A program made the position numbers and the translations under genes. 58,850 nt of DNA from an uncultured Clostridia bacterium (GTDB taxonomy: Bacteria; Bacillota; Clostridia; TANB77; CAG-508), in contig CALXKA010000003.1 in NCBI GenBank assembly GCA_944388765.1, positions 1-58,850 of the forward strand, in the 5' to 3' direction. Within the stretch, counting starts at the first letter, position 1. Every line of letters starts with the position of its first letter. Below the pieces are notes generated by a model. It was not told the DNA's origin and did not search any database. It saw only the letters and a list, made by a program, of their open reading frames with translations. Below, in pieces: positions 33,869-39,425 of this stretch.

Positions 33869-34516
33869 TTATTTTTTTATTTTTACTCCTAGAAGGTATA
33901 ATAACTCTATTGCTTGAAAGCTTTCTATTATTGCTCCTTTTATATCTTCTTGCGATATAGCTATTCCATCTATTATTGCATTTGATAAATCTATGTTTTT
34001 AAAGCTTGTCTTAAACACTTGTGCTTGCGTTAAGTCTGTATTATTTTGAAAATATACATTTTTGAGCTTATTTTCTTGAAAATTACTGTTTCTTAAAGTT
34101 GTTTTGTTAAAGCATACATTTTCTATACTTGATATTGATAAATTGATATAATTTGCATTTGTATCATTAAATGTCACATTATATATTCTTGTTTCTGCTA
34201 AATTTGAACCTGCTAGTTTACAATTATTGAATTCGCATCTAATGAAAGCAGAATTTTCAAATGAAGTATTAGAAAAATTACAATTATCAAATATTACATC
34301 TATAAATGTATTATTTTCTAGTTTTCCTTCCAATATTTCTACATTATGAAATTTAGATTTTTCTATTTTTGTATCATATATTTTTTCATTTTTTAAATTA
34401 ATATTTTCTATTATTTTATATTCTAATTCTTGATAGTTTTCTTCTAATTCAGAATTTAAATCATCTATTTTTTGTAATTTTTCTATTTGAATCTTTTGAG
34501 GTTTTAATATATTCAT
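33869..34516 (-). CDS. pentapeptide-repeat protein
   Basis: Long run of A(D/N)LxX-type pentapeptides ('NCNFSNTSFENSAFIRCEFNNCKLAGSNLAETRI...'). Confidence 0.8.
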   Translation of the reverse strand: MNILKPQKIQIEKLQKIDDLNSELEENYQELEYKIIENINLKNEKIYDTKIEKSKFHNVEILEGKLENNTFIDVIFDNCNFSNTSFENSAFIRCEFNNCKLAGSNLAETRIYNVTFNDTNANYINLSISSIENVCFNKTTLRNSNFQENKLKNVYFQNNTDLTQAQVFKTSFKNIDLSNAIIDGIAISQEDIKGAIIESFQAIELLYLLGVKIKK

Positions 34517-34527
34517 TCTTTCTCCTT

Positions 34528-35091
34528 CTAACATATATTTTTATTTTTGATATAACTATCTTTAAATTCTTCTGCTAATATATCCATGCTAATTCTATCA
34601 TAATATTTTCCATTAGCAAATTCTGCTTTTCTTCTTCTACCATATTCCTTAAATCCACATTTTTTATAGCATGCAATTGCTCTTTTATTAAATTCCATTA
34701 CATCTAATTTAATATTATTTAAATTTAGATAATTAAATCCATAATCTAATATTAATCTAATTGCTTCTGTTCCATATCCTTTATTTCTTGCTTCTTTATC
34801 TCCAATAAAAACTCCAAGTGTTGCTCTTCTACTAATGTAATTTATTTTTTCTAATGATATAGATCCTATTAATTTATCCGTTTTCAATTCAATTATTCCA
34901 AATGTTGCTTCTTCATTTATATGTTTTTCTAAATATTCTTTTTCTGCCTCTATTGTTACTAATGCTCCGCTTCTTCCTAAATAATCTGTCGTTTCAAAAT
35001 CATTTAACCATTCTGTAAATTTTTCCACATCATCTACGTTTCTTGGCGATAAATATATTTTTTCTCCTAATAATTTTTTAAAATATTCCAT
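34528..35091 (-). CDS. GNAT family N-acetyltransferase (RimJ/RimL-like)
   Basis: 'RNKGYGTEAIRLILDYGF' and 'N.RAIACYKKCGF'. The ATG at 35091 follows an AGGAAG RBS. Confidence 0.8.
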   Translation of the reverse strand: MEYFKKLLGEKIYLSPRNVDDVEKFTEWLNDFETTDYLGRSGALVTIEAEKEYLEKHINEEATFGIIELKTDKLIGSISLEKINYISRRATLGVFIGDKEARNKGYGTEAIRLILDYGFNYLNLNNIKLDVMEFNKRAIACYKKCGFKEYGRRRKAEFANGKYYDRISMDILAEEFKDSYIKNKNIC

Positions 35092-35103
35092 TTTTATCAC
35101 TTC

Positions 35104-35601
35104 CTATTCTAAATTATATTTATAGCATACTTCATCATATTGTTTATCACCTATTGTTATTTTTCTTTCATTGCATAACTTTCCTCCAATTTTTTCATAG
35201 AATTTTCTTGCATTTTTATTTTCTTTTAAGCACCATATAACCGCTTCTTTATATCCTTTATCTTTTAGTATTTGCATAGCTTTTTTAGATAAACTCTTTC
35301 CTATTCCATTATTTCTTTCATCATATTTTATATATAAAGCATATATTTCTCCATATTCTTTTTTATTATCTCTATTTTCTCCAAACCTACAATATCCTTT
35401 TACATCTTCATTGTCTATATATACAATTGATTTTTGTTTTTCATATTTTTCTTTTATATTTTTTGCTCTATCTATATAATTTAAAGCTTCTAGATAATTG
35501 CTATCAATTATTCCTTTGTATGATATTTTCCAGTCATCTACAATTATTTTTGCAATTTTGTCTATATCCTTTTCTTCGTAATATCTAATCACTTTAATCA
35601 T
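35104..35601 (-). CDS. GNAT family N-acetyltransferase
   Basis: 'RNNGIGKSL' and 'N..ARKFYEKIGG'. Confidence 0.8.
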   Translation of the reverse strand: MIKVIRYYEEKDIDKIAKIIVDDWKISYKGIIDSNYLEALNYIDRAKNIKEKYEKQKSIVYIDNEDVKGYCRFGENRDNKKEYGEIYALYIKYDERNNGIGKSLSKKAMQILKDKGYKEAVIWCLKENKNARKFYEKIGGKLCNERKITIGDKQYDEVCYKYNLE

Positions 35602-35614
35602 CCCCTATAAAATA

Positions 35615-36400
35615 TTATACCTTTTCAACTATTTCTAATATGTGCGAACTATATCCAATCAAATCTTTTCTGTCACAATTTTTTAAATGATAGTCTACAT
35701 ATATTTCGAATTCTTCATCATCCATTTTATTGATATATTCAGCTAAATTAGGTGCGATTCCATCTGTTGCAATTGTTTCTATTTCTTTTACATTATATCT
35801 TGATATTAAGTTACTAAAATCTTTTACTTTAAATGTTGAAAATATTTCTTCTTTTATCTTAGCAACATTCCAATTTTTATCACAAATTTCTTTCAATCTT
35901 TTTAAATTTCCTTTTCTCACCCCGTATGAATATATAACAGCATCATCTGTTATATATGCAATAAAAATTTTTCCACCTTTTTTAGTTACCCTGATAGCTT
36001 CTTTTATAGCTTTATCTATATCTAAATCTTCATATAAATGATATAATGGTCCTAATACTAATGTAATATCAAAACTATTTTCTTCATATATGCTTAAATC
36101 TGTGGCATTTCCTTGTATTGCTTTTATTTTCATCCCATTAGTTATTTTGCTTTTTAAAATTTCTAAATTTTTATTAATTAATTCTATACTGTTAACATCA
36201 AACCCTTTTTTAGCATAATAGATTGAATATCTACCTGTTCCTGCACCGATTTCTAATATTTTATTTCCTCTTTCTAAATATTTTTCTATGTATTTAGTTG
36301 TTGTAATAAACTCTATTTGATGTGCTTTGTCTTTTATTAATCTTGAATCTTCATCATAATTGTTATAATATTCATTTAAAATTTTTTCTACTTCATTCAT
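35615..36400 (-). CDS. class I SAM-dependent methyltransferase
   Basis: 'ILEIGAGTGRYS' motif I. 261 aa. Confidence 0.8.
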   Translation of the reverse strand: MNEVEKILNEYYNNYDEDSRLIKDKAHQIEFITTTKYIEKYLERGNKILEIGAGTGRYSIYYAKKGFDVNSIELINKNLEILKSKITNGMKIKAIQGNATDLSIYEENSFDITLVLGPLYHLYEDLDIDKAIKEAIRVTKKGGKIFIAYITDDAVIYSYGVRKGNLKRLKEICDKNWNVAKIKEEIFSTFKVKDFSNLISRYNVKEIETIATDGIAPNLAEYINKMDDEEFEIYVDYHLKNCDRKDLIGYSSHILEIVEKV

Positions 36401-36412
36401 ATTAATCTCCCC

Positions 36413-37318
36413 TTATTTTAATTTTCTTATCATTTTATAATGAGTTTTTGTCTCGTCATAAATTTCAAATCCCACTTTTTTATATAGAAATCTTGCCGGA
36501 TTTTCTTTAAATACTTGTAATATAGTATTTCTTTTGTCAGTTTCGTCTATTTTTAATTGCTCTTTTAATATTTCTTTTCCTATACCTTTTCCCTGATATT
36601 TTTTATCTATATAAAATAGACCTATTTCACTTTCATTATTTTTATTAATATAATTTGTAAACATTCCTATAACCTCATTTTTATATGTAATAATATTTAT
36701 ATTGTCAATATTTTTGTTTATAGACTCTTTAAAAAACTTAACTTGAAATTCATCATTCCAGGGTCCATATATTTTTTCTACATACCACTTAAAACATTCT
36801 TTTTTTGTTTGATATAAATAATTAAAATCTTTTTCTTCGTATTTTTTAAAATTATATATATCTAATTTCATTGGTGTAAATATTATCCCATCAATTTTTT
36901 GTAGTGCATCAGTATCTTTAAATCCTTTTGCATGATAAAACTTTATTCCACATATAGATGAGTTTACTGTTATTTCTTTTATATTTTTATTATTTTTTCT
37001 ACAATAAAATTTTGCTTCTTCTAATAGTTTTGTAGCTATTTTCTTTCTATGATATTTTTTATCTACAAATAAAAGTGCAATATGTGAGTAATCTTTAACT
37101 GCAATCATTCCAACGATTTTATTATCATCTTTCATTATAAAAATTTTCATATTTTTATTTAATTGTTTTTTTATGTTATCATAATTGGCAAATTTATAAA
37201 AATTTTCTATTTCTTCTTTTGTATAATAGGGTGCTTCAAATTCATCAAAAACTCTTTTTACTAATTTCATAGTTTCTTCTAATTCATTTATTTTCATTTC
37301 TTTTAATAAACTTTTCAT
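36413..37318 (-). CDS. tandem double-GNAT acetyltransferase
   Basis: Two acetyl-CoA motifs, 'HRKKIATKLL' and 'QGKGIGKEIL'. The C-terminal half is paralogous to 50320-50763 ('ILQVFKENPA...THYKM'). Confidence 0.75.
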   Translation of the reverse strand: MKSLLKEMKINELEETMKLVKRVFDEFEAPYYTKEEIENFYKFANYDNIKKQLNKNMKIFIMKDDNKIVGMIAVKDYSHIALLFVDKKYHRKKIATKLLEEAKFYCRKNNKNIKEITVNSSICGIKFYHAKGFKDTDALQKIDGIIFTPMKLDIYNFKKYEEKDFNYLYQTKKECFKWYVEKIYGPWNDEFQVKFFKESINKNIDNINIITYKNEVIGMFTNYINKNNESEIGLFYIDKKYQGKGIGKEILKEQLKIDETDKRNTILQVFKENPARFLYKKVGFEIYDETKTHYKMIRKLK

Positions 37319-37365
37319 TTTCTCATCTCCCTCATAATATAAAAAGCCCTGCTAAGAAATCTCAT
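37315..37365 (-). CDS. possible 16-codon leader peptide (uORF) 'MRFLSRAFYIMREMRK'
   Basis: AAGGAG lies 9 nt upstream of its ATG. Its TGA stop overlaps the GNAT ATG (ATGA). Its SD and first codons form the two arms of the leader terminator. Confidence 0.3.
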   Translation of the reverse strand: MRFLSRAFYIMREMRK

Positions 37366-37513
37366 TTATTAAGACTCCTTAGCAAGACTTATTCATCTTA
37401 CTTTCTGTGTAAGTAATTATCTATTTTAACTACTCTGTACCGCTCAAATTTATATTTTAGGTACACTCTTAATTTATGTATAAAATTTTATCATGTTATT
37501 TCCTTTTTGTCAA
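37319..37513 (-). promoter_or_regulatory. promoter plus ~165-nt structured leader (attenuator or riboswitch-like) of the GNAT operon
   Basis: On the minus strand: TTGACA (37508-37513), 17-nt spacer, TGaTAAAAT (-10 at 37485-37490). Hairpins GTACC...GGTAC and CTTAC...GTAAG follow, then an intrinsic terminator, then a GAGGGAG RBS. Confidence 0.6.
37341..37388 (-). terminator. leader (attenuator) terminator upstream of the double-GNAT gene
   Basis: 9-bp stem CTTGCTAAG / CTTAGCAGG (one G-U pair) followed by GCTTTTTAT, placed between the promoter and the start codon. Confidence 0.6.
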
Positions 37514-37532
37514 TATCATTTTACATAATCTT

Positions 37533-39425
37533 CTATTTTTCTTCAACTTCTTTCTCAATAGCCCTCTTTTCTCTCATTACTCCATCATCTTCTATGCAAT
37601 AATGTTTGTCTACATATCTTTGCGCTAAATCAACCCTATGTGTTACTACTATTCCCATTGCTCCTACATCTTTAATTGCTTGTATTATTGATTTTAGTTG
37701 TTCATCTATTAATTCATCTTCGACATTTCCAACTGGTTCATCTACTAATATTATTGATGGATTTTCTGTTGTTCTATATAGAGCCTGAGCCAATGCTAAT
37801 CGCTTTTTTTGTCCTGTTGAAAATTGATTATAATCCTTTGATGATAAATCTTCTAGTATTTTTTCACTTTCTAGCTTAACATCTTTTAATACTTTTTCTA
37901 ATTTTTCTCTTTCTTCTATTGTAACTTCTGAAATAGACTCTTTTCCTGTTATCTCTTCTAATACATTAGAATATATTCCTAACTTTTTATCTGCTTTTAC
38001 AGCTATAAATTGTTTTCCTAATTTATCTACTACTTCTTCTCCATCTATTAATATTGCATTTCTGTTATTTATATCTCCTCTTTTTAATAATCTTATAAAT
38101 GTACTTTTTCCTATTCCTGATTTCCCTGATAATAGTACTACTTCTCCTTTTCGTATTGAAAATTCTGGAATTTCTATATTATGCCTAAAATTTACTTTTC
38201 CTGTATCTTGATTTGTTTCTTGATAAAATTTTCCTTTAAGATTCTTTATTTCTAAGCTTTCAAACGGTTTTTGTATTTCAATTAATGGATCTTGCTTTTC
38301 TTCAATTTGTCTTACAATATCTTCTACTTCTTCTTCATATTCTTTTAATTTTTGATTTTCATGTTGAAATTTATACATAAAAGTCACATTATCCATTATA
38401 TTTCTTATAAGATAGCTATTCTGGCTTATTTCTACTAATATTTGTGATATAGTTTTAGCATCAAGTTTTTCTGCATTCTTTAATTTTTCTACTCCTATCA
38501 TACCAGTTAGTATTGACATTGATATTATTTCTATTGCTTTCATTAAATTTACTTTATTTTCAATTTTAATTTCTTCTCCATGAGCTATATGTATATTATC
38601 TTTTATTTCATTTAGTTTGTCTTTTTCTTCAATTACACTACTTGGCTCATTTTCTACTAGATTTCCTGATAATCTTCTAACATCTCTCATTTTGTCTCCT
38701 ACTTTTTCTTTGTAATCTTTTGTAACATATTTTCTTCCAATTAAAGTTCCTACACTTATTAATCCAGTTATGCCTAATGCTTTTGCTATATTTTTAGATT
38801 TTTTACTTTCACTACAAATTGCTCCTAACATACTTGCTAGACTCATACCAAGTCCAAGATACGTAGAAAATTTATTATCTTGTATATAATGTAGTTGGTT
38901 TTCATACTCACTAATAATACTTGCTATTTCTTCTTCTGACATAGATATTTCTATTTCAACATCCTTTTCTTTTCCATTTTTATCTTTATCCTTTATTTTC
39001 TTCTTTTTTGTTATTATTCCATCTCTTGAACTTTGTATTATGTCATACATGTTTTCTAAATTAGCAATTTCTCTTTCTGCATTGAATTTTAAATGCATAT
39101 TATTCTCATACATGTTCAAAAAATCAAATAAAGGTCCCTTTCCTAACCTTAATAAAGTTATCAATTTTACAGTTTCTGGCTTTAATTCTTTATTATCTGA
39201 ATTTAAATTTCTTAAAATTGCTTCTAATCCTGTATCTCCTACAATTTCTAAAAATTCAATTCCTCTAATTATATGTATTAAATCTGAATTTTTAAATTTT
39301 CCTGTCTTAAATTTTTCAATTCTTGTATATTTCCTTTTTTTAGGTTTACTCCCTAAATTTGTTTTTATTTTTGAAGTTATAATTTTTGCTGTTTGACCTA
39401 TATTTGGAATATATTTTTTACCCAT
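37533..39425 (-). CDS. atypical ABC protein: ~400-aa N-terminal region with ~3 predicted TM helices fused to an ABC ATPase domain
   Basis: Walker A 'GKSGIGKST', signature 'FSTGQKKR', Walker B 'ILVDEP'. The N-terminal part is charged and coiled with hydrophobic stretches ('YLGLGMSLASMLGAIC','ALGITGLISVGTLIG','IEIISMSILTGMIGV') and resembles no permease family I recognise. Confidence 0.65.
   Translation of the reverse strand: MGKKYIPNIGQTAKIITSKIKTNLGSKPKKRKYTRIEKFKTGKFKNSDLIHIIRGIEFLEIVGDTGLEAILRNLNSDNKELKPETVKLITLLRLGKGPLFDFLNMYENNMHLKFNAEREIANLENMYDIIQSSRDGIITKKKKIKDKDKNGKEKDVEIEISMSEEEIASIISEYENQLHYIQDNKFSTYLGLGMSLASMLGAICSESKKSKNIAKALGITGLISVGTLIGRKYVTKDYKEKVGDKMRDVRRLSGNLVENEPSSVIEEKDKLNEIKDNIHIAHGEEIKIENKVNLMKAIEIISMSILTGMIGVEKLKNAEKLDAKTISQILVEISQNSYLIRNIMDNVTFMYKFQHENQKLKEYEEEVEDIVRQIEEKQDPLIEIQKPFESLEIKNLKGKFYQETNQDTGKVNFRHNIEIPEFSIRKGEVVLLSGKSGIGKSTFIRLLKRGDINNRNAILIDGEEVVDKLGKQFIAVKADKKLGIYSNVLEEITGKESISEVTIEEREKLEKVLKDVKLESEKILEDLSSKDYNQFSTGQKKRLALAQALYRTTENPSIILVDEPVGNVEDELIDEQLKSIIQAIKDVGAMGIVVTHRVDLAQRYVDKHYCIEDDGVMREKRAIEKEVEEK

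What the first reader, a model, noticed from the sequence alone, without database searches (positions are those of the whole stretch)
37315..37513. Promoter-proximal terminator with embedded uORF upstream of the acetyltransferase operon
A near-consensus promoter (TTGACA-17-TGaTAAAAT) is followed by a ~165-nt leader. The leader has two hairpins, then an intrinsic terminator, and only then the GNAT RBS. The left arm of the terminator contains an AAGGAG sequence 9 nt upstream of an ATG that opens a 16-codon uORF (MRFLSRAFYIMREMRK). The uORF's TGA overlaps the GNAT ATG. This layout resembles ribosome- or ligand-dependent attenuation as used by antibiotic-inducible resistance genes. I could not match the leader to any riboswitch class I know.
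Basis: partly seen in the sequence, partly recalled or inferred. Interest (0 to 1): 0.62.

Follow-up and report, generated by a model that had tools for sequence, protein, structure and literature searches.

The report
Trimmed ykkC-type alarmone riboswitch before GNAT operon
The leader in front of this acetyltransferase operon is a real, widely conserved RNA switch: a stripped-down relative of the known ykkC riboswitches that sense the starvation alarmone (p)ppGpp. It most likely turns on a set of drug-modifying and export genes in uncultured gut Clostridia, and the small reading frame inside it is incidental.

Summary
The uORF is not conserved: only 7 of 87 distinct homologous leaders have an ATG there.

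The RNA itself is strongly conserved, in 84 of 301 genomes of the order and twice in this genome. It lies upstream of GNATs, natA-type ABC-2 exporters, MFS pumps, P-loop kinases, methyltransferases and peptidases.

The nascent RNA folds into a four-way junction (P0, P1, P2, P3). P3 and P0 use the whole left arm of the terminator, so the aptamer and the terminator exclude each other, which makes it an ON switch.

No Rfam family matches the window copy. GC-richer relatives do link it, in both directions, to ykkC/Guanidine-I (RF00442).

The published (p)ppGpp pocket positions are invariant: A-5, G-6, AGC, ACAC. The P3-P0 linker AGGAG has the A-N-GAG form of the pppGpp-specific natA aptamer C101 (ACGAG).

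My reading is a trimmed ykkC subtype-2a-like riboswitch. The ligand is probably (p)ppGpp, but this is unproven.

The parts
37485..37513 (-). Sigma-70-type promoter: -35 TTGACA (37513..37508), 17-nt spacer, extended -10 TGaTAAAAT (37493..37485). The inferred transcription start is about 37479-37477.
   Evidence: 11 of 12 matches plus TG. A promoter-like site with the -10 ending 7-13 nt before the conserved U(A/G)(A/G)GAGU occurs in 81 of 87 homologues.
37368..37473 (-). Aptamer domain: a four-way junction of P0, P1 (with P1a), P2 and P3.
   Evidence: This is the MFE fold of the nascent transcript in 88 of 90 (P0) and 83 of 90 (P3) homologues and in the window itself. Covariation is shown.
37467..37473 (-). 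P0 5' strand AUUAAGA. Its last A (37467) corresponds to A-5 of (p)ppGpp aptamers. The unpaired G 37466 corresponds to G-6.
   Evidence: P0 is paired in 98% of cells, with 9 double-change cells against 1.5+-1.0 in shuffles. A-5 and G-6 are invariant in 87 of 87. Their roles are taken from PMC9881157.
37436..37465 (-). P1 (37465..37460 with 37441..37436), enclosing CUA, the P1a hairpin (37457..37446) and GAGC (37445..37442). The P1 3' end reads ACA with its last A paired, the 'P1-ACA 0/1' arrangement. The whole stem-loop is only 30 nt and has no P1b.
   Evidence: Compensatory pairs are UA/AU/GC and CG/UA. AGC is invariant in 87 of 87.
37411..37435 (-). P2 hairpin.
   Evidence: The stem sequence varies and covaries.
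37407..37410 (-). Invariant ACAC (the 'P2-ACAC' motif). In solved ppGpp aptamers its first C pairs with the guanine of the ligand.
   Evidence: Invariant in 86-87 of 87. The role is taken from PMC9881157 and PMC6031431.
37382..37401 (-). P3 hairpin (GUAAGAU / GUCUUGC), which acts as the antiterminator. Its 3' strand is the outer part of the terminator's left arm.
   Evidence: Paired in 85% of cells, with 34 double-change cells against 16.4+-3.1 in shuffles (0 of 500 reach it). The pairs change between families: UAAG:CUUG/A, CGAG:CUCG, UGAG:CUCA. P3 acts as the antiterminator in ppGpp riboswitches (PMC6003355).
37375..37381 (-). P3-P0 linker UA-AGGAG.
   Evidence: AGGAG is invariant in 86-87 of 87. 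It has the same A-N-GAG form as the ACGAG linker of the pppGpp-specific aptamer C101.
37368..37374 (-). P0 3' strand UCUUAAU. It lies in the inner left arm and loop of the terminator.
37336..37390 (-). Intrinsic terminator (expression platform): a 20-bp hairpin at 37390..37344 followed by a U-rich tract.
   Evidence: The hairpin alone folds at -27.3 kcal/mol. The whole leader folds at -42.0 kcal/mol in the OFF state against -22.8 in the ON state. Covariation in the stem is shown.
37315..37365 (-). 16-codon uORF (ATG 37365..37363, TGA 37317..37315). It is specific to this window and probably incidental.
36413..37333 (-). Ribosome-binding site GAGGGAG (37333..37327) and the first regulated gene, a 301-aa double-GNAT acetyltransferase.
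33869..36400 (-). The rest of the co-directional operon: a SAM methyltransferase (261 aa), a GNAT (165 aa), a SpeG/RimL-like GNAT (190 aa) and a Qnr-like pentapeptide-repeat protein (221 aa).

Best explanation
The leader is a transcriptional ON riboswitch of the ykkC fold family. It is closest to the natA-type branch of subtype 2a, the (p)ppGpp riboswitches.

Transcription starts a few bases upstream of the element. The nascent RNA first folds into a four-way junction: P0 formed by the 5' and 3' tails, a trimmed P1/P1a, P2 and P3.

P3 and P0 together use the whole left arm of the downstream terminator. If the ligand holds the junction together, the terminator cannot form and RNA polymerase reads into the GNAT-methyltransferase-GNAT-GNAT-pentapeptide operon. 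Without ligand, the much more stable terminator displaces P3 and P0 and transcription stops.

Shown here:
- conservation of the element;
- the four helices and their covariation;
- mutual exclusion of the aptamer and the terminator;
- homology to the ykkC family;
- invariance of the published pocket positions.

Inferred:
- that the ligand is (p)ppGpp, possibly with a preference for pppGpp as in the natA aptamers C101 and C94;
- that the switch works in vivo.

I put about 0.85-0.9 on 'ykkC-family ON riboswitch'. Given that, I put about 0.55-0.6 on '(p)ppGpp is the ligand'. The confidence of 0.55 is for the whole statement.
For: - Distribution: 84 of 301 genomes of the order and three families carry the element. 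This genome has two copies, before unrelated genes. More than 120 pattern hits were found, all but one in uncultured gut Clostridia MAGs.
- Position: the element is always sense and upstream of an ORF (87 of 91).
- Structure: 17 of 35 terminator-state pairs have compensatory changes. P3 and P0 are supported on an alignment that was not fitted to them. The truncated-transcript MFE is the four-way junction.
- Energies: OFF -42.0 kcal/mol against ON -22.8.
- Family link: GC-richer relatives found with my model score on RF00442 (L227 59.8 bits against a cut-off of 63). My model, built only from AT-rich copies, scores canonical ykkC loci: L259 59.4, L247 54.2, L260 47.3, PRPP 38-42, guanidine-I 34-39 bits.
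- Literature: PRPP and ppGpp aptamers have exactly this P0/P1/P2/P3 junction, with P0 in the expression platform and P3 as antiterminator.
- Pocket: A-5, G-6, AGC, ACAC and AGGAG are invariant in 87 distinct sequences. The linker A-N-GAG matches ACGAG of the pppGpp-specific C101/C94 natA aptamers. Relatives L247 and L233 carry ACGAG itself.
- Shared gene association: 9 of 87 members precede a NatA/DrrA-like ATPase, and in three of the four next genes scanned the following gene is a PF06182 permease. GC-richer members of the same linker type are mostly natA-associated.
- Alarmone synthesis: the genome encodes a long RSH and a small alarmone synthetase.
Against: - RF00442 finds nothing at E<=10 in the window, nothing at E<=1 in 20 close homologues, and nothing at E<=1 in 41 genomes of the genus and order. 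Membership therefore rests on transitive homology.
- P1b is absent. The P1 stem-loop is 30 nt, against 41 nt or more in tested aptamers. The ykkC blocks CUAGGGUUCC/GGUCC and the P3 loop GGGAUAAAAGCCC are replaced by AU-rich sequence. In solved structures these blocks form the P3-P1a docking that helps build the pocket.
- The unpaired stretch between P3 and P0 is 7 nt in the window (UAAGGAG), against 4-5 nt in binders.
- The main target genes (GNATs, kinase, methyltransferase, peptidases) are not reported for (p)ppGpp riboswitches. They would fit a toxic-compound sensor equally well.
- There are no binding or transcript data.
Confidence: 0.55

Rival explanations
1. The fold and mechanism are the same, but the specificity is new. 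On this reading it is an orphan ykkC subtype whose ligand is not (p)ppGpp. Candidates are another phosphorylated nucleotide or alarmone (pGpp, (p)ppApp, a toxic nucleotide or aminoacyl-nucleotide analogue), or a cationic amine or guanidino compound common in the gut.
For: - The ykkC scaffold is known to switch ligands with very few changes, and one orphan subtype (2d) remains.
- P1b is lost and the P3 loop is changed, and the linker is longer.
- The regulon is dominated by amine-acetylating GNATs. The best, sub-threshold, NCBIfam hits are SpeG and PaiA.
- The regulon also includes exporters, an MccF-like S66 peptidase, M20 and S51 peptidases, a PNP/UDP phosphorylase and a P-loop kinase. This is the pattern seen with detoxification riboswitches.
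Against: - All positions that contact (p)ppGpp in the solved or tested aptamers are invariant.
- The PRPP-type G in the P3 internal loop is absent.
- The linker has the form seen in the two pppGpp-preferring natA aptamers.
- The natA-type ABC operon is a shared target.
Confidence: 0.28
2. The conserved leader is bound by a protein or another macromolecule, not a small molecule. Candidates are an antiterminator protein or the 30S subunit through AGGAG.
For: An 11-nt block, AGGAGUCUUAA, is invariant and resembles a perfect Shine-Dalgarno sequence. Sequence invariance on its own cannot separate protein binding from ligand binding.
Against: - Homology to a fold family in which every characterised member binds a small molecule.
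- No conserved co-occurring RNA-binding gene was seen next to the element, and the downstream genes are heterogeneous.
- The invariant block is explained by the linker plus the P0 strand.
Confidence: 0.05
3. Ribosome-mediated attenuation through the uORF. Translation or stalling on MRFLSRAFYIMREMRK would control terminator formation or would couple translation to the GNAT start.
For: In the window, AAGGAG lies 9 nt upstream of an ATG, and the uORF stop overlaps the GNAT ATG (ATGA).
Against: - The start codon is present in only 7 of 87 homologues (11 of 87 with GTG or TTG). The peptides are 4-16+ residues long and unrelated. The start codon is absent from the paralogous copy in the same genome.
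- The uORF starts inside the terminator loop. A ribosome could therefore load only after the termination decision, and the terminated RNA would end inside the uORF.
Confidence: 0.03
4. There is no regulation. The hairpin would simply be the terminator of the upstream 630-aa ABC-like gene and the promoter a chance match, or the unit would be a free-standing small RNA gene.
For: - The upstream gene stops at 37533, only 20 nt before the -35, with no terminator of its own in between.
- Promoter-like sites are not enriched in the region.
Against: - The promoter, aptamer and terminator are conserved as a unit in front of many different genes and after many different upstream genes.
- An ORF follows on the same strand in 87 of 91 cases.
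- The pairings that compete with the terminator covary.
Confidence: 0.03

Closest known systems
(p)ppGpp riboswitches, ykkC subtype 2a, natA-associated aptamers C101 (Clostridiales bacterium oral taxon 876) and C94 (Clostridium sp. BL8). Sources: Sherlock et al. 2018, PMC6003355; RNA-DRaCALA study, PMC9881157.
   Same: - Four-way junction P0/P1/P2/P3, with P3 as antiterminator and an intrinsic terminator as platform.
- A-5 followed by an unpaired G-6, then U pairing with the last A of the P1 'ACA' (0/1 arrangement).
- The AGC bulge nucleotides and ACAC.
- A 5-nt linker of the form A-N-GAG (AGGAG here, ACGAG in C101/C94) directly before P0.
- A NatA-like ATPase plus PF06182 permease operon among the targets.
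- Clostridial hosts.
   Different: - No P1b, and a 30-nt P1 stem-loop.
- The ykkC blocks GGGUUCC/GGUCC and the GGGAUAAAAGCCC P3 loop are replaced by AU-rich sequence.
- Two more unpaired nucleotides before the linker.
- Not detected by RF00442.
- Most targets are GNATs, MFS pumps, kinases, methyltransferases and peptidases, which are not reported for this class.
- Ligand binding has not been tested.
PRPP riboswitch, ykkC subtype 2b (Sherlock et al. 2018, PMC5912903; structure in Knappenberger et al. 2018, PMC6031431).
   Same: The same fold with P0, the same A|G|U start, GAGCG and ACAC. My model scores PRPP elements at 38-42 bits.
   Different: - PRPP elements have the linker GUAGG, P0 UUUCGC and a G-containing internal loop in P3 (AGG/AGU).
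[quoted passage not shown]
- None of this applies here.
Guanidine-I riboswitch, ykkC subtype 1 (Rfam RF00442).
   Same: The P1/P2/P3 scaffold, the conserved elements CUAG...GAG(A/C)G...ACAC, and an ON switch with a terminator.
   Different: - Guanidine-I has no conserved P0. Its tail is GGGAGA.
- Its targets are Gdx/SugE, MATE and guanidine-degrading enzymes (L237, L238, L241).
- RF00442 does not detect the window element.
Gd4v motif, an orphan variant of guanidine-IV (Lenkeit et al. 2022, PMC9788692).
   Same: An orphan or variant riboswitch enriched in gut metagenomes. It is often upstream of GNAT and exporter genes and is an ON switch with a terminator.
   Different: The fold is unrelated: two hairpins joined by a kissing-loop pseudoknot. 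Its commonest target is a PLP transaminase.
Leader-peptide (ribosome-mediated) attenuators of resistance genes (erm, cat, bmrCD, vmlR type). Named from my own knowledge.
   Same: A promoter-proximal terminator in front of resistance-like genes, with a short ORF present in this window.
   Different: Those systems need a conserved leader peptide placed upstream of the competing helices. Here the ORF is not conserved and begins in the terminator loop.

Membership tests
ykkC fold family (Rfam RF00442 and its subtype-2 variants) | The element scores above the Rfam gathering threshold (63 bits). | tested here: not met
   There is no RF00442 hit at E<=10 in the window, at E<=1 in 20 close homologues, or at E<=1 in 41 genomes of the genus and order. 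The GC-richer relative L227 reaches 59.8 bits.
ykkC fold family (Rfam RF00442 and its subtype-2 variants) | Homology is detectable in both directions through intermediates. | tested here: met
   Model R1, built only from AT-rich copies, finds L227, L228 and L233, and these or their relatives score on RF00442. R1 also scores canonical guanidine-I, PRPP and ilv-type 2a loci at 34-59 bits.
ykkC fold family (Rfam RF00442 and its subtype-2 variants) | P1 with P1a and P1b and the blocks CUAGGGUUCCG / GGUCCGAGAG; a P2 hairpin; P3 with the loop GGGAUAAAAGCCC. | tested here: inconclusive
   P1, P1a, P2 and P3 are present and covary. CUA(G) and GAGCG are kept. P1b and the GGGUUCC/GGUCC blocks are missing, and the P3 loop is AAGAU...AAGUCUU. 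GC-richer members of the same linker type (L259, L260, L247) keep the canonical blocks.
(p)ppGpp riboswitch (ykkC subtype 2a) | A P0 helix formed by the 5' and 3' tails, giving a four-way junction. | tested here: met
   P0 has 5-9 bp in all 90 sequences and is paired in 98% of cells with compensatory changes. It is present in the MFE fold of 88 of 90 truncated transcripts. The definition is from PMC6031431.
(p)ppGpp riboswitch (ykkC subtype 2a) | A conserved A as the last nucleotide of the P0 5' strand, followed by an unpaired G (A-5, G-6). | tested here: met
   Both are invariant in 87 of 87 distinct sequences. The criterion is from PMC9881157.
(p)ppGpp riboswitch (ykkC subtype 2a) | An invariant ACAC between P2 and P3. 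| tested here: met
   Invariant in 86-87 of 87.
(p)ppGpp riboswitch (ykkC subtype 2a) | A conserved G and C in the bulge between P1a and P1b (G-43, C-44). | tested here: inconclusive
   AGC is invariant (87 of 87) at the equivalent place (GAGCG, as in PRPP and 2a elements). There is no P1b, so the bulge context differs.
(p)ppGpp riboswitch (ykkC subtype 2a) | A 4-5 nt purine-rich single strand between P3 and P0: (A)NARG or NAGG, or ACGAG in the pppGpp-specific C101. | tested here: inconclusive
   AGGAG lies directly before P0 and is invariant. It has the A-N-GAG form of C101. In the window two further nucleotides (UA) are unpaired, giving 7 nt in all. The third position is G, not the consensus A.
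(p)ppGpp riboswitch (ykkC subtype 2a) | No PRPP-type G (G96) available to pair with the first C of ACAC. | tested here: inconclusive
   There is no G-containing internal loop on the 3' side of P3 in the window (GUCUUGC-UA-AGGAG). The exact structural equivalence cannot be fixed from sequence alone.
(p)ppGpp riboswitch (ykkC subtype 2a) | Typical gene associations: BCAA or glutamate synthesis, or natA plus COG3694/COG4587 ABC operons. | tested here: inconclusive
   A natA-type ATPase follows in 9 of 87 members, and the next gene was a PF06182 permease in three of the four scanned. That PF06182 equals COG3694/COG4587 is from my memory. No BCAA or glt genes were found. 55 of 87 members precede GNATs.
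(p)ppGpp riboswitch (ykkC subtype 2a) | Selective binding of ppGpp or pppGpp and ligand-dependent antitermination. | not testable with these tools
   This needs in-line probing or DRaCALA and transcription assays.
PRPP riboswitch (ykkC subtype 2b) | Association with purine-biosynthesis genes, the GUAGG linker and a conserved G in the P3 internal loop. | tested here: not met
Guanidine-I riboswitch (ykkC subtype 1) | A GGGAGA tail without a conserved P0, and guanidine export or degradation genes. | tested here: not met
Leader-peptide transcription attenuator | A conserved, translatable leader ORF positioned so that the ribosome decides between alternative helices. | tested here: not met
   An ATG is present in 7 of 87, the peptides are unrelated, and the ORF begins in the terminator loop.

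The most novel reading that the evidence does not exclude
This is a naturally minimised ykkC aptamer: no P1b, a remodelled P3-loop/P1a contact and a longer linker. Either it still reads (p)ppGpp with a much smaller scaffold than any tested aptamer, or it has moved to a new, gut-relevant ligand. In both cases it places a resistome-like set of genes under one RNA sensor across an uncultured order of gut Clostridia: several GNAT families, a P-loop kinase, a methyltransferase, a Qnr-like pentapeptide protein, an MccF-like peptidase, and ABC-2 and MFS exporters. The bolder half of this reading is the new ligand, which would make it a fifth solved or sixth known specificity of the ykkC scaffold.
Probability: 0.28. 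Interest if true: 0.78.

Novelty: new variant of a known kind. Interest (0 to 1): 0.56.

Why it matters
Three points follow if the reading holds.

1. Current annotation misses the element. Rfam 15 finds nothing in the window, its close homologues or the order. A whole uncultured order of gut Clostridia therefore appears to lack ykkC-type switches while about a quarter to a third of its genomes carry one to four copies.

2. It would show how far the ykkC scaffold can be trimmed while keeping every pocket nucleotide. That is useful for understanding, and for engineering, alarmone aptamers.

3. If the ligand is (p)ppGpp, the stringent-response alarmone directly switches on acetyltransferases, a kinase, a methyltransferase, a gyrase-protector-like protein and exporters. 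That would be a direct RNA link between starvation or translation stress and intrinsic drug modification and efflux in gut anaerobes. I found no report of these gene classes under a (p)ppGpp riboswitch.

If the ligand is something else, this is a new orphan specificity in the most versatile riboswitch fold known.

Tried and rejected
- Direct Rfam scans of the window and of 20 homologous loci found nothing relevant.
- I proposed a third hairpin, CUUAC/GUAAG, as an anti-antiterminator. It cannot form in the two other families of the order, so I dropped it.
- I considered the Gd4v/guanidine-IV variant because of its GNAT and gut association. The fold and main target differ, so I rejected it.
- I compared complementarity between the linker and the terminator arm with shuffled linkers. 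It was only weakly discriminating per sequence (mean run 5.8 against 4.4 nt; 35% at p<=0.05) because the sequences are AU-rich. I relied instead on covariation between families.
- Two class-level hits (L230, L232) and L231 lack ACAC and AGC, and I set them aside as false positives.
- NCBIfam gave no above-threshold name for any regulated GNAT, methyltransferase or kinase, so substrate-based ligand inference failed.
- Literature searches for a GNAT-associated ykkC variant or a further named subtype found none.
- The phylum-level search added only PRPP and ordinary 2a elements.
Full report
**1. The observation**

All genes around the finding are on the minus strand. Reading that strand, the layout is as follows.

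- The 630-aa ABC-like gene ends with TAG at 37535..37533.
- A promoter follows: TTGACA (37513..37508), 17 nt, then TGaTAAAAT (37493..37485). That is 11 of 12 matches plus the extended -10 TG.
- About 140 nt of leader follow. It holds two hairpins and a 20-bp hairpin (37390..37344) followed by a U-rich tract. The scan found 2 terminator-like sites against 0.1 expected.
- GAGGGAG and the ATG of a 301-aa double-GNAT (37318) come next.
- AAGGAG (37380..37375) lies in the left arm of the terminator. An ATG in the terminator loop (37365) opens MRFLSRAFYIMREMRK, and its TGA overlaps the GNAT ATG.

The leader folds far better than shuffled sequence (z = -6.2). The description is therefore accurate.

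**2. The leader is a conserved RNA, not a local accident**

- A second copy, 70% identical, lies in the same genome (C17:18100-18240). It follows pyrD and precedes an unrelated P-loop (AAA_18/SKI-like) gene. It has the same promoter type and compensatory changes in every stem, but no ATG in the terminator loop.
- BLASTN found the element in 42 of 151 genomes of the family.
- A covariance model built from 25 copies (A1, R1) found it in 84 of 301 genomes of the order. These span three families, with up to four copies per genome.
All but one are uncultured Clostridia MAGs from human, sheep, goat, rabbit, chicken and deer guts, for example Clostridium sp. CAG:571, CAG:452 and UMGS1570.
- In 81 of 87 distinct copies a promoter-like site ends 7-13 nt before the first conserved block, so the element starts at the 5' end of its transcript.
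- An ORF follows on the same strand in 87 of 91 cases.

**3. The uORF**

A start codon 4-12 nt after the AGGAG occurs in 7 of 87 distinct copies (11 with GTG or TTG). The peptides are 4 to more than 16 residues long and unrelated. The uORF also begins inside the terminator loop, so a terminated RNA would end within it. I regard it as incidental to this window.

**4. Structure and mechanism**

RNAalifold supports P1 (with an inner hairpin P1a), P2 and the terminator. Of 35 pairs, 17 have compensatory changes.

Two further helices compete with the terminator.

- **P3:** GUAAGAU (37401..37395) pairs with GUCUUGC (37388..37382), the outer left arm of the terminator.
- **P0:** AUUAAGA (37473..37467) pairs with UCUUAAU (37374..37368), the inner left arm and loop.

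I counted pairs on the 91-sequence alignment A2, which was fitted to the terminator and not to these helices.

| Helix | Cells paired | Double-change cells | Shuffles (mean±sd) | Shuffles reaching the observed value |
|---|---|---|---|---|
| P3 | 85% | 34 | 16.4±3.1 | 0 of 500 |
| P0 | 98% | 9 | 1.5±1.0 | 0 of 500 |

Slid controls were 57% paired or less for both.

Between families, the P3 core changes from UAAG:CUU(G/A) to CGAG:CUCG or UGAG:CUCA. P0 changes from UUAAGA:UCUUAA to AAUAGGA:UCUUAUU.

I then folded transcripts cut just before the terminator's right arm. P0 appeared in 88 of 90 and P3 in 83 of 90.

| State of the window leader | Energy (kcal/mol) |
|---|---|
| Nascent RNA, MFE (four-way junction) | -24.6 |
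| Complete leader, junction (ON) state | -22.8 |
| Complete leader, terminator (OFF) state | -42.0 |

The default outcome is therefore termination. Anything that stabilises the junction gives readthrough, so this is an ON switch.

**5. What it is related to**

Rfam 15 gave no relevant match in the window at E<=10 or in 20 homologous loci at E<=1.

A class-level search with R1 found weaker, GC-richer hits upstream of the same gene classes:

- L227, upstream of a GNAT;
- L228, upstream of a NatA/DrrA-like ABC ATPase;
- L233, upstream of an MFS transporter.

It also found elements before purL and purC (L229).

Scanning these loci with Rfam gave Guanidine-I/ykkC (RF00442) just below threshold. L227 scored 59.8 bits against a cut-off of 63, L229 scored 48 and 43, and L233 scored 38. 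L229b sits directly after a purine aptamer, which is the published tandem guanine-PRPP arrangement.

In the other direction, R1 scores loci found with RF00442 in 301 Clostridia genomes:

| Locus or type | R1 score (bits) |
|---|---|
| L259 | 59.4 |
| L247 | 54.2 |
| L260 | 47.3 |
| PRPP elements | 38-42 |
| Guanidine-I | 34-39 |
| ilv-type ppGpp element | 36.8 |

The link to the ykkC family therefore runs in both directions, but through intermediates. RF00442 itself finds nothing in 41 genomes of the genus and order, including carriers.

**6. Agreement with the literature on ykkC subtype 2**

- PRPP and ppGpp aptamers differ from guanidine-I by a helix P0 formed by the 5' and 3' tails. This gives a four-way junction P0/P1/P2/P3, and P0 takes part in the expression platform (PMC6031431).
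- P3 acts as the antiterminator (PMC6003355).

I had derived this same architecture from the sequences before reading those papers.

The RNA-DRaCALA study (PMC9881157) lists the features needed for (p)ppGpp binding:

- the P0 stem;
- a conserved A at the end of its 5' strand, followed by an unpaired G;
- a G-C in the P1a/P1b bulge;
- ACAC after P2, whose first C pairs with the ligand's guanine;
- a 4-5 nt purine-rich linker between P3 and P0.

In 87 distinct copies of the element, A-5, G-6, AGC, ACAC, the linker AGGAG and the first two P0 nucleotides are invariant or nearly so. The P1 3' end in the window reads ACA with the last A paired, the '0/1' arrangement.

**7. Which branch of the family**

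I parsed the tails of the RF00442 hits.

| Type | Linker, then P0 3' strand | Downstream genes |
|---|---|---|
| Guanidine-I | GGGAGAUAU, no P0 | SugE, MATE |
| PRPP | GUAGG + UUUCGC | purine genes |
| ilv-type ppGpp | CAGG + UUUCUUC | ilv genes |
| N(G/C)GAG group (window type) | AGGAG, UGGAG, CGGAG or ACGAG, then UC... | see below |

The N(G/C)GAG group contains the window element, L259 and L260 (AGGAG), L250, L257, L258, L261 and L263 (UGGAG or CGGAG), L228 (CGGAG), and L247 and L233 (ACGAG).

- Eight of the GC-richer members precede NatA-like ABC ATPases. L247 precedes a GNAT and L233 an MFS transporter.
- PMC9881157 gives the linker of C101 as 5'-ACGAG, shared with C94. C101 is the natA aptamer of Clostridiales oral taxon 876 and is pppGpp-specific (Kd 119 nM). 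C94 is the natA aptamer of Clostridium sp. BL8. It prefers pppGpp and binds ppGpp at about 400 nM. Both have a short P1 and the 0/1 ACA/GCA arrangement.
- The window's AGGAG differs from ACGAG only at the position that the consensus leaves free.
- In the order studied here, 9 of 87 elements precede a NatA/DrrA-like ATPase. In three of the four next genes scanned, a PF06182 permease follows. This is the operon type reported for natA-associated ppGpp riboswitches. The equation of PF06182 with COG3694/COG4587 is from my memory.
- The genome encodes a long RSH enzyme and a small alarmone synthetase.

**8. What is different**

- The element is much reduced. The P1 stem-loop is 30 nt, against 41 nt or more in tested aptamers.
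- P1b and the blocks GGGUUCC/GGUCC are absent.
- The P3 loop GGGAUAAAAGCCC has become AAGAU...AAGUCUU.
- Two extra nucleotides are unpaired before the linker.

In solved structures the P3 loop docks into P1a and helps form the pocket. A change or loss of specificity therefore cannot be excluded.

The regulon is also unusual. The 87 first downstream ORFs break down as follows:

| Downstream gene class | Number |
|---|---|
| GNATs in total | 55 |
| of which SpeG/RimL-like Acetyltransf_3, ~187 aa | 33 |
| ABC ATPases | 9 |
| MFS transporters | 7 |
| P-loop AAA_18/SKI-like | 4 |
| SAM methyltransferases | 3 |
| S66 (LD-carboxypeptidase/MccF-like) peptidases | 3 |
| M20 peptidases | 2 |
| Histidine phosphatase | 1 |
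| PNP/UDP phosphorylase | 1 |
| S51 peptidase | 1 |
| 61-aa ORF, not scanned | 1 |

The window operon adds a Qnr-like pentapeptide-repeat protein. I found no report of these classes under a (p)ppGpp riboswitch.

**9. Verdict**

The interpretation 'ligand-dependent attenuation' is right, and the uORF part is not.

The element is a trimmed, AT-rich variant of the ykkC subtype-2 fold and is closest to the natA-type (p)ppGpp aptamers.

- Shown: conservation, helices, mutual exclusion with the terminator, family link, invariant pocket positions.
- Inferred: the ligand, and function in vivo.

Earlier notes of this scan on other genomes describe similar ykkC-like leaders before GNAT and MFS genes. 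They agree with this reading, but they are not independent evidence.

Noticed in passing
G000 contig C17:18100-18240 (minus strand) = L002 1501-1641: A second copy of the same riboswitch lies in this genome, between pyrD (a 302-aa dihydroorotate dehydrogenase) and a 187-aa P-loop AAA_18/SKI-like protein with no NCBIfam name. It has a conserved TTGACT-17-TGaTAAAAT promoter.
   Followed up: partly
window 37533-39425 (minus strand): The upstream 630-aa protein has one ABC ATPase domain (residues 421-565) behind about 400 residues with no Pfam match. It stops 20 nt before the riboswitch promoter with no terminator of its own. Its transcripts probably run into the riboswitch terminator.
   Followed up: no
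L229 614-740 and 1501-1627; L251: Other Clostridia genomes (G724, G440) carry textbook PRPP riboswitches before purC and purL. One of them directly follows a purine aptamer (Rfam Purine, 77.6 bits), the known guanine-PRPP tandem.
   Followed up: partly
L011 1502-1654 (G074:C23): One copy carries an insertion of about 35 nt, with hairpin potential, in the terminator loop between GGAGUCUUAA and the right arm. The aptamer is intact.
   Followed up: no
L088 1700-1825 and 3582-3708 (G096:C8): Two elements lie 1.8 kb apart on one contig. The second keeps P1 and P2 almost identical to the first, but it lacks ACAC, P3 and the AGGAGUC tail and ends in a different terminator. It looks like a recombined or decayed copy.
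   Followed up: no
L022 (G084:C5:40262-40398): This copy has an intact aptamer, but the terminator's right arm and U-tract are replaced by unrelated sequence. It may be a constitutively open or dead switch.
   Followed up: no
L024 (G101:C8), downstream of the element: The GNAT reading frame right after this copy looks broken, with an early stop after about 10 codons of a RimJ-like start. The first long ORF begins 315 nt downstream.
   Followed up: no
L230 387-510 and L232 1501-1624: Two genomes from different families share a nearly identical ~124-nt element ending in GUCUUGUAAAACU...GCAAGGCUUUUUU. It scored weakly with my model but lacks AGC and ACAC, so it is probably a different terminator-containing leader.
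   Followed up: no
window 33869-34534 (minus strand): The last gene of the riboswitch-controlled operon is a 221-aa pentapeptide-repeat protein. Its best, sub-threshold, NCBIfam match is the Qnr family (49.6 bits against a cut-off of 240).
   Followed up: partly
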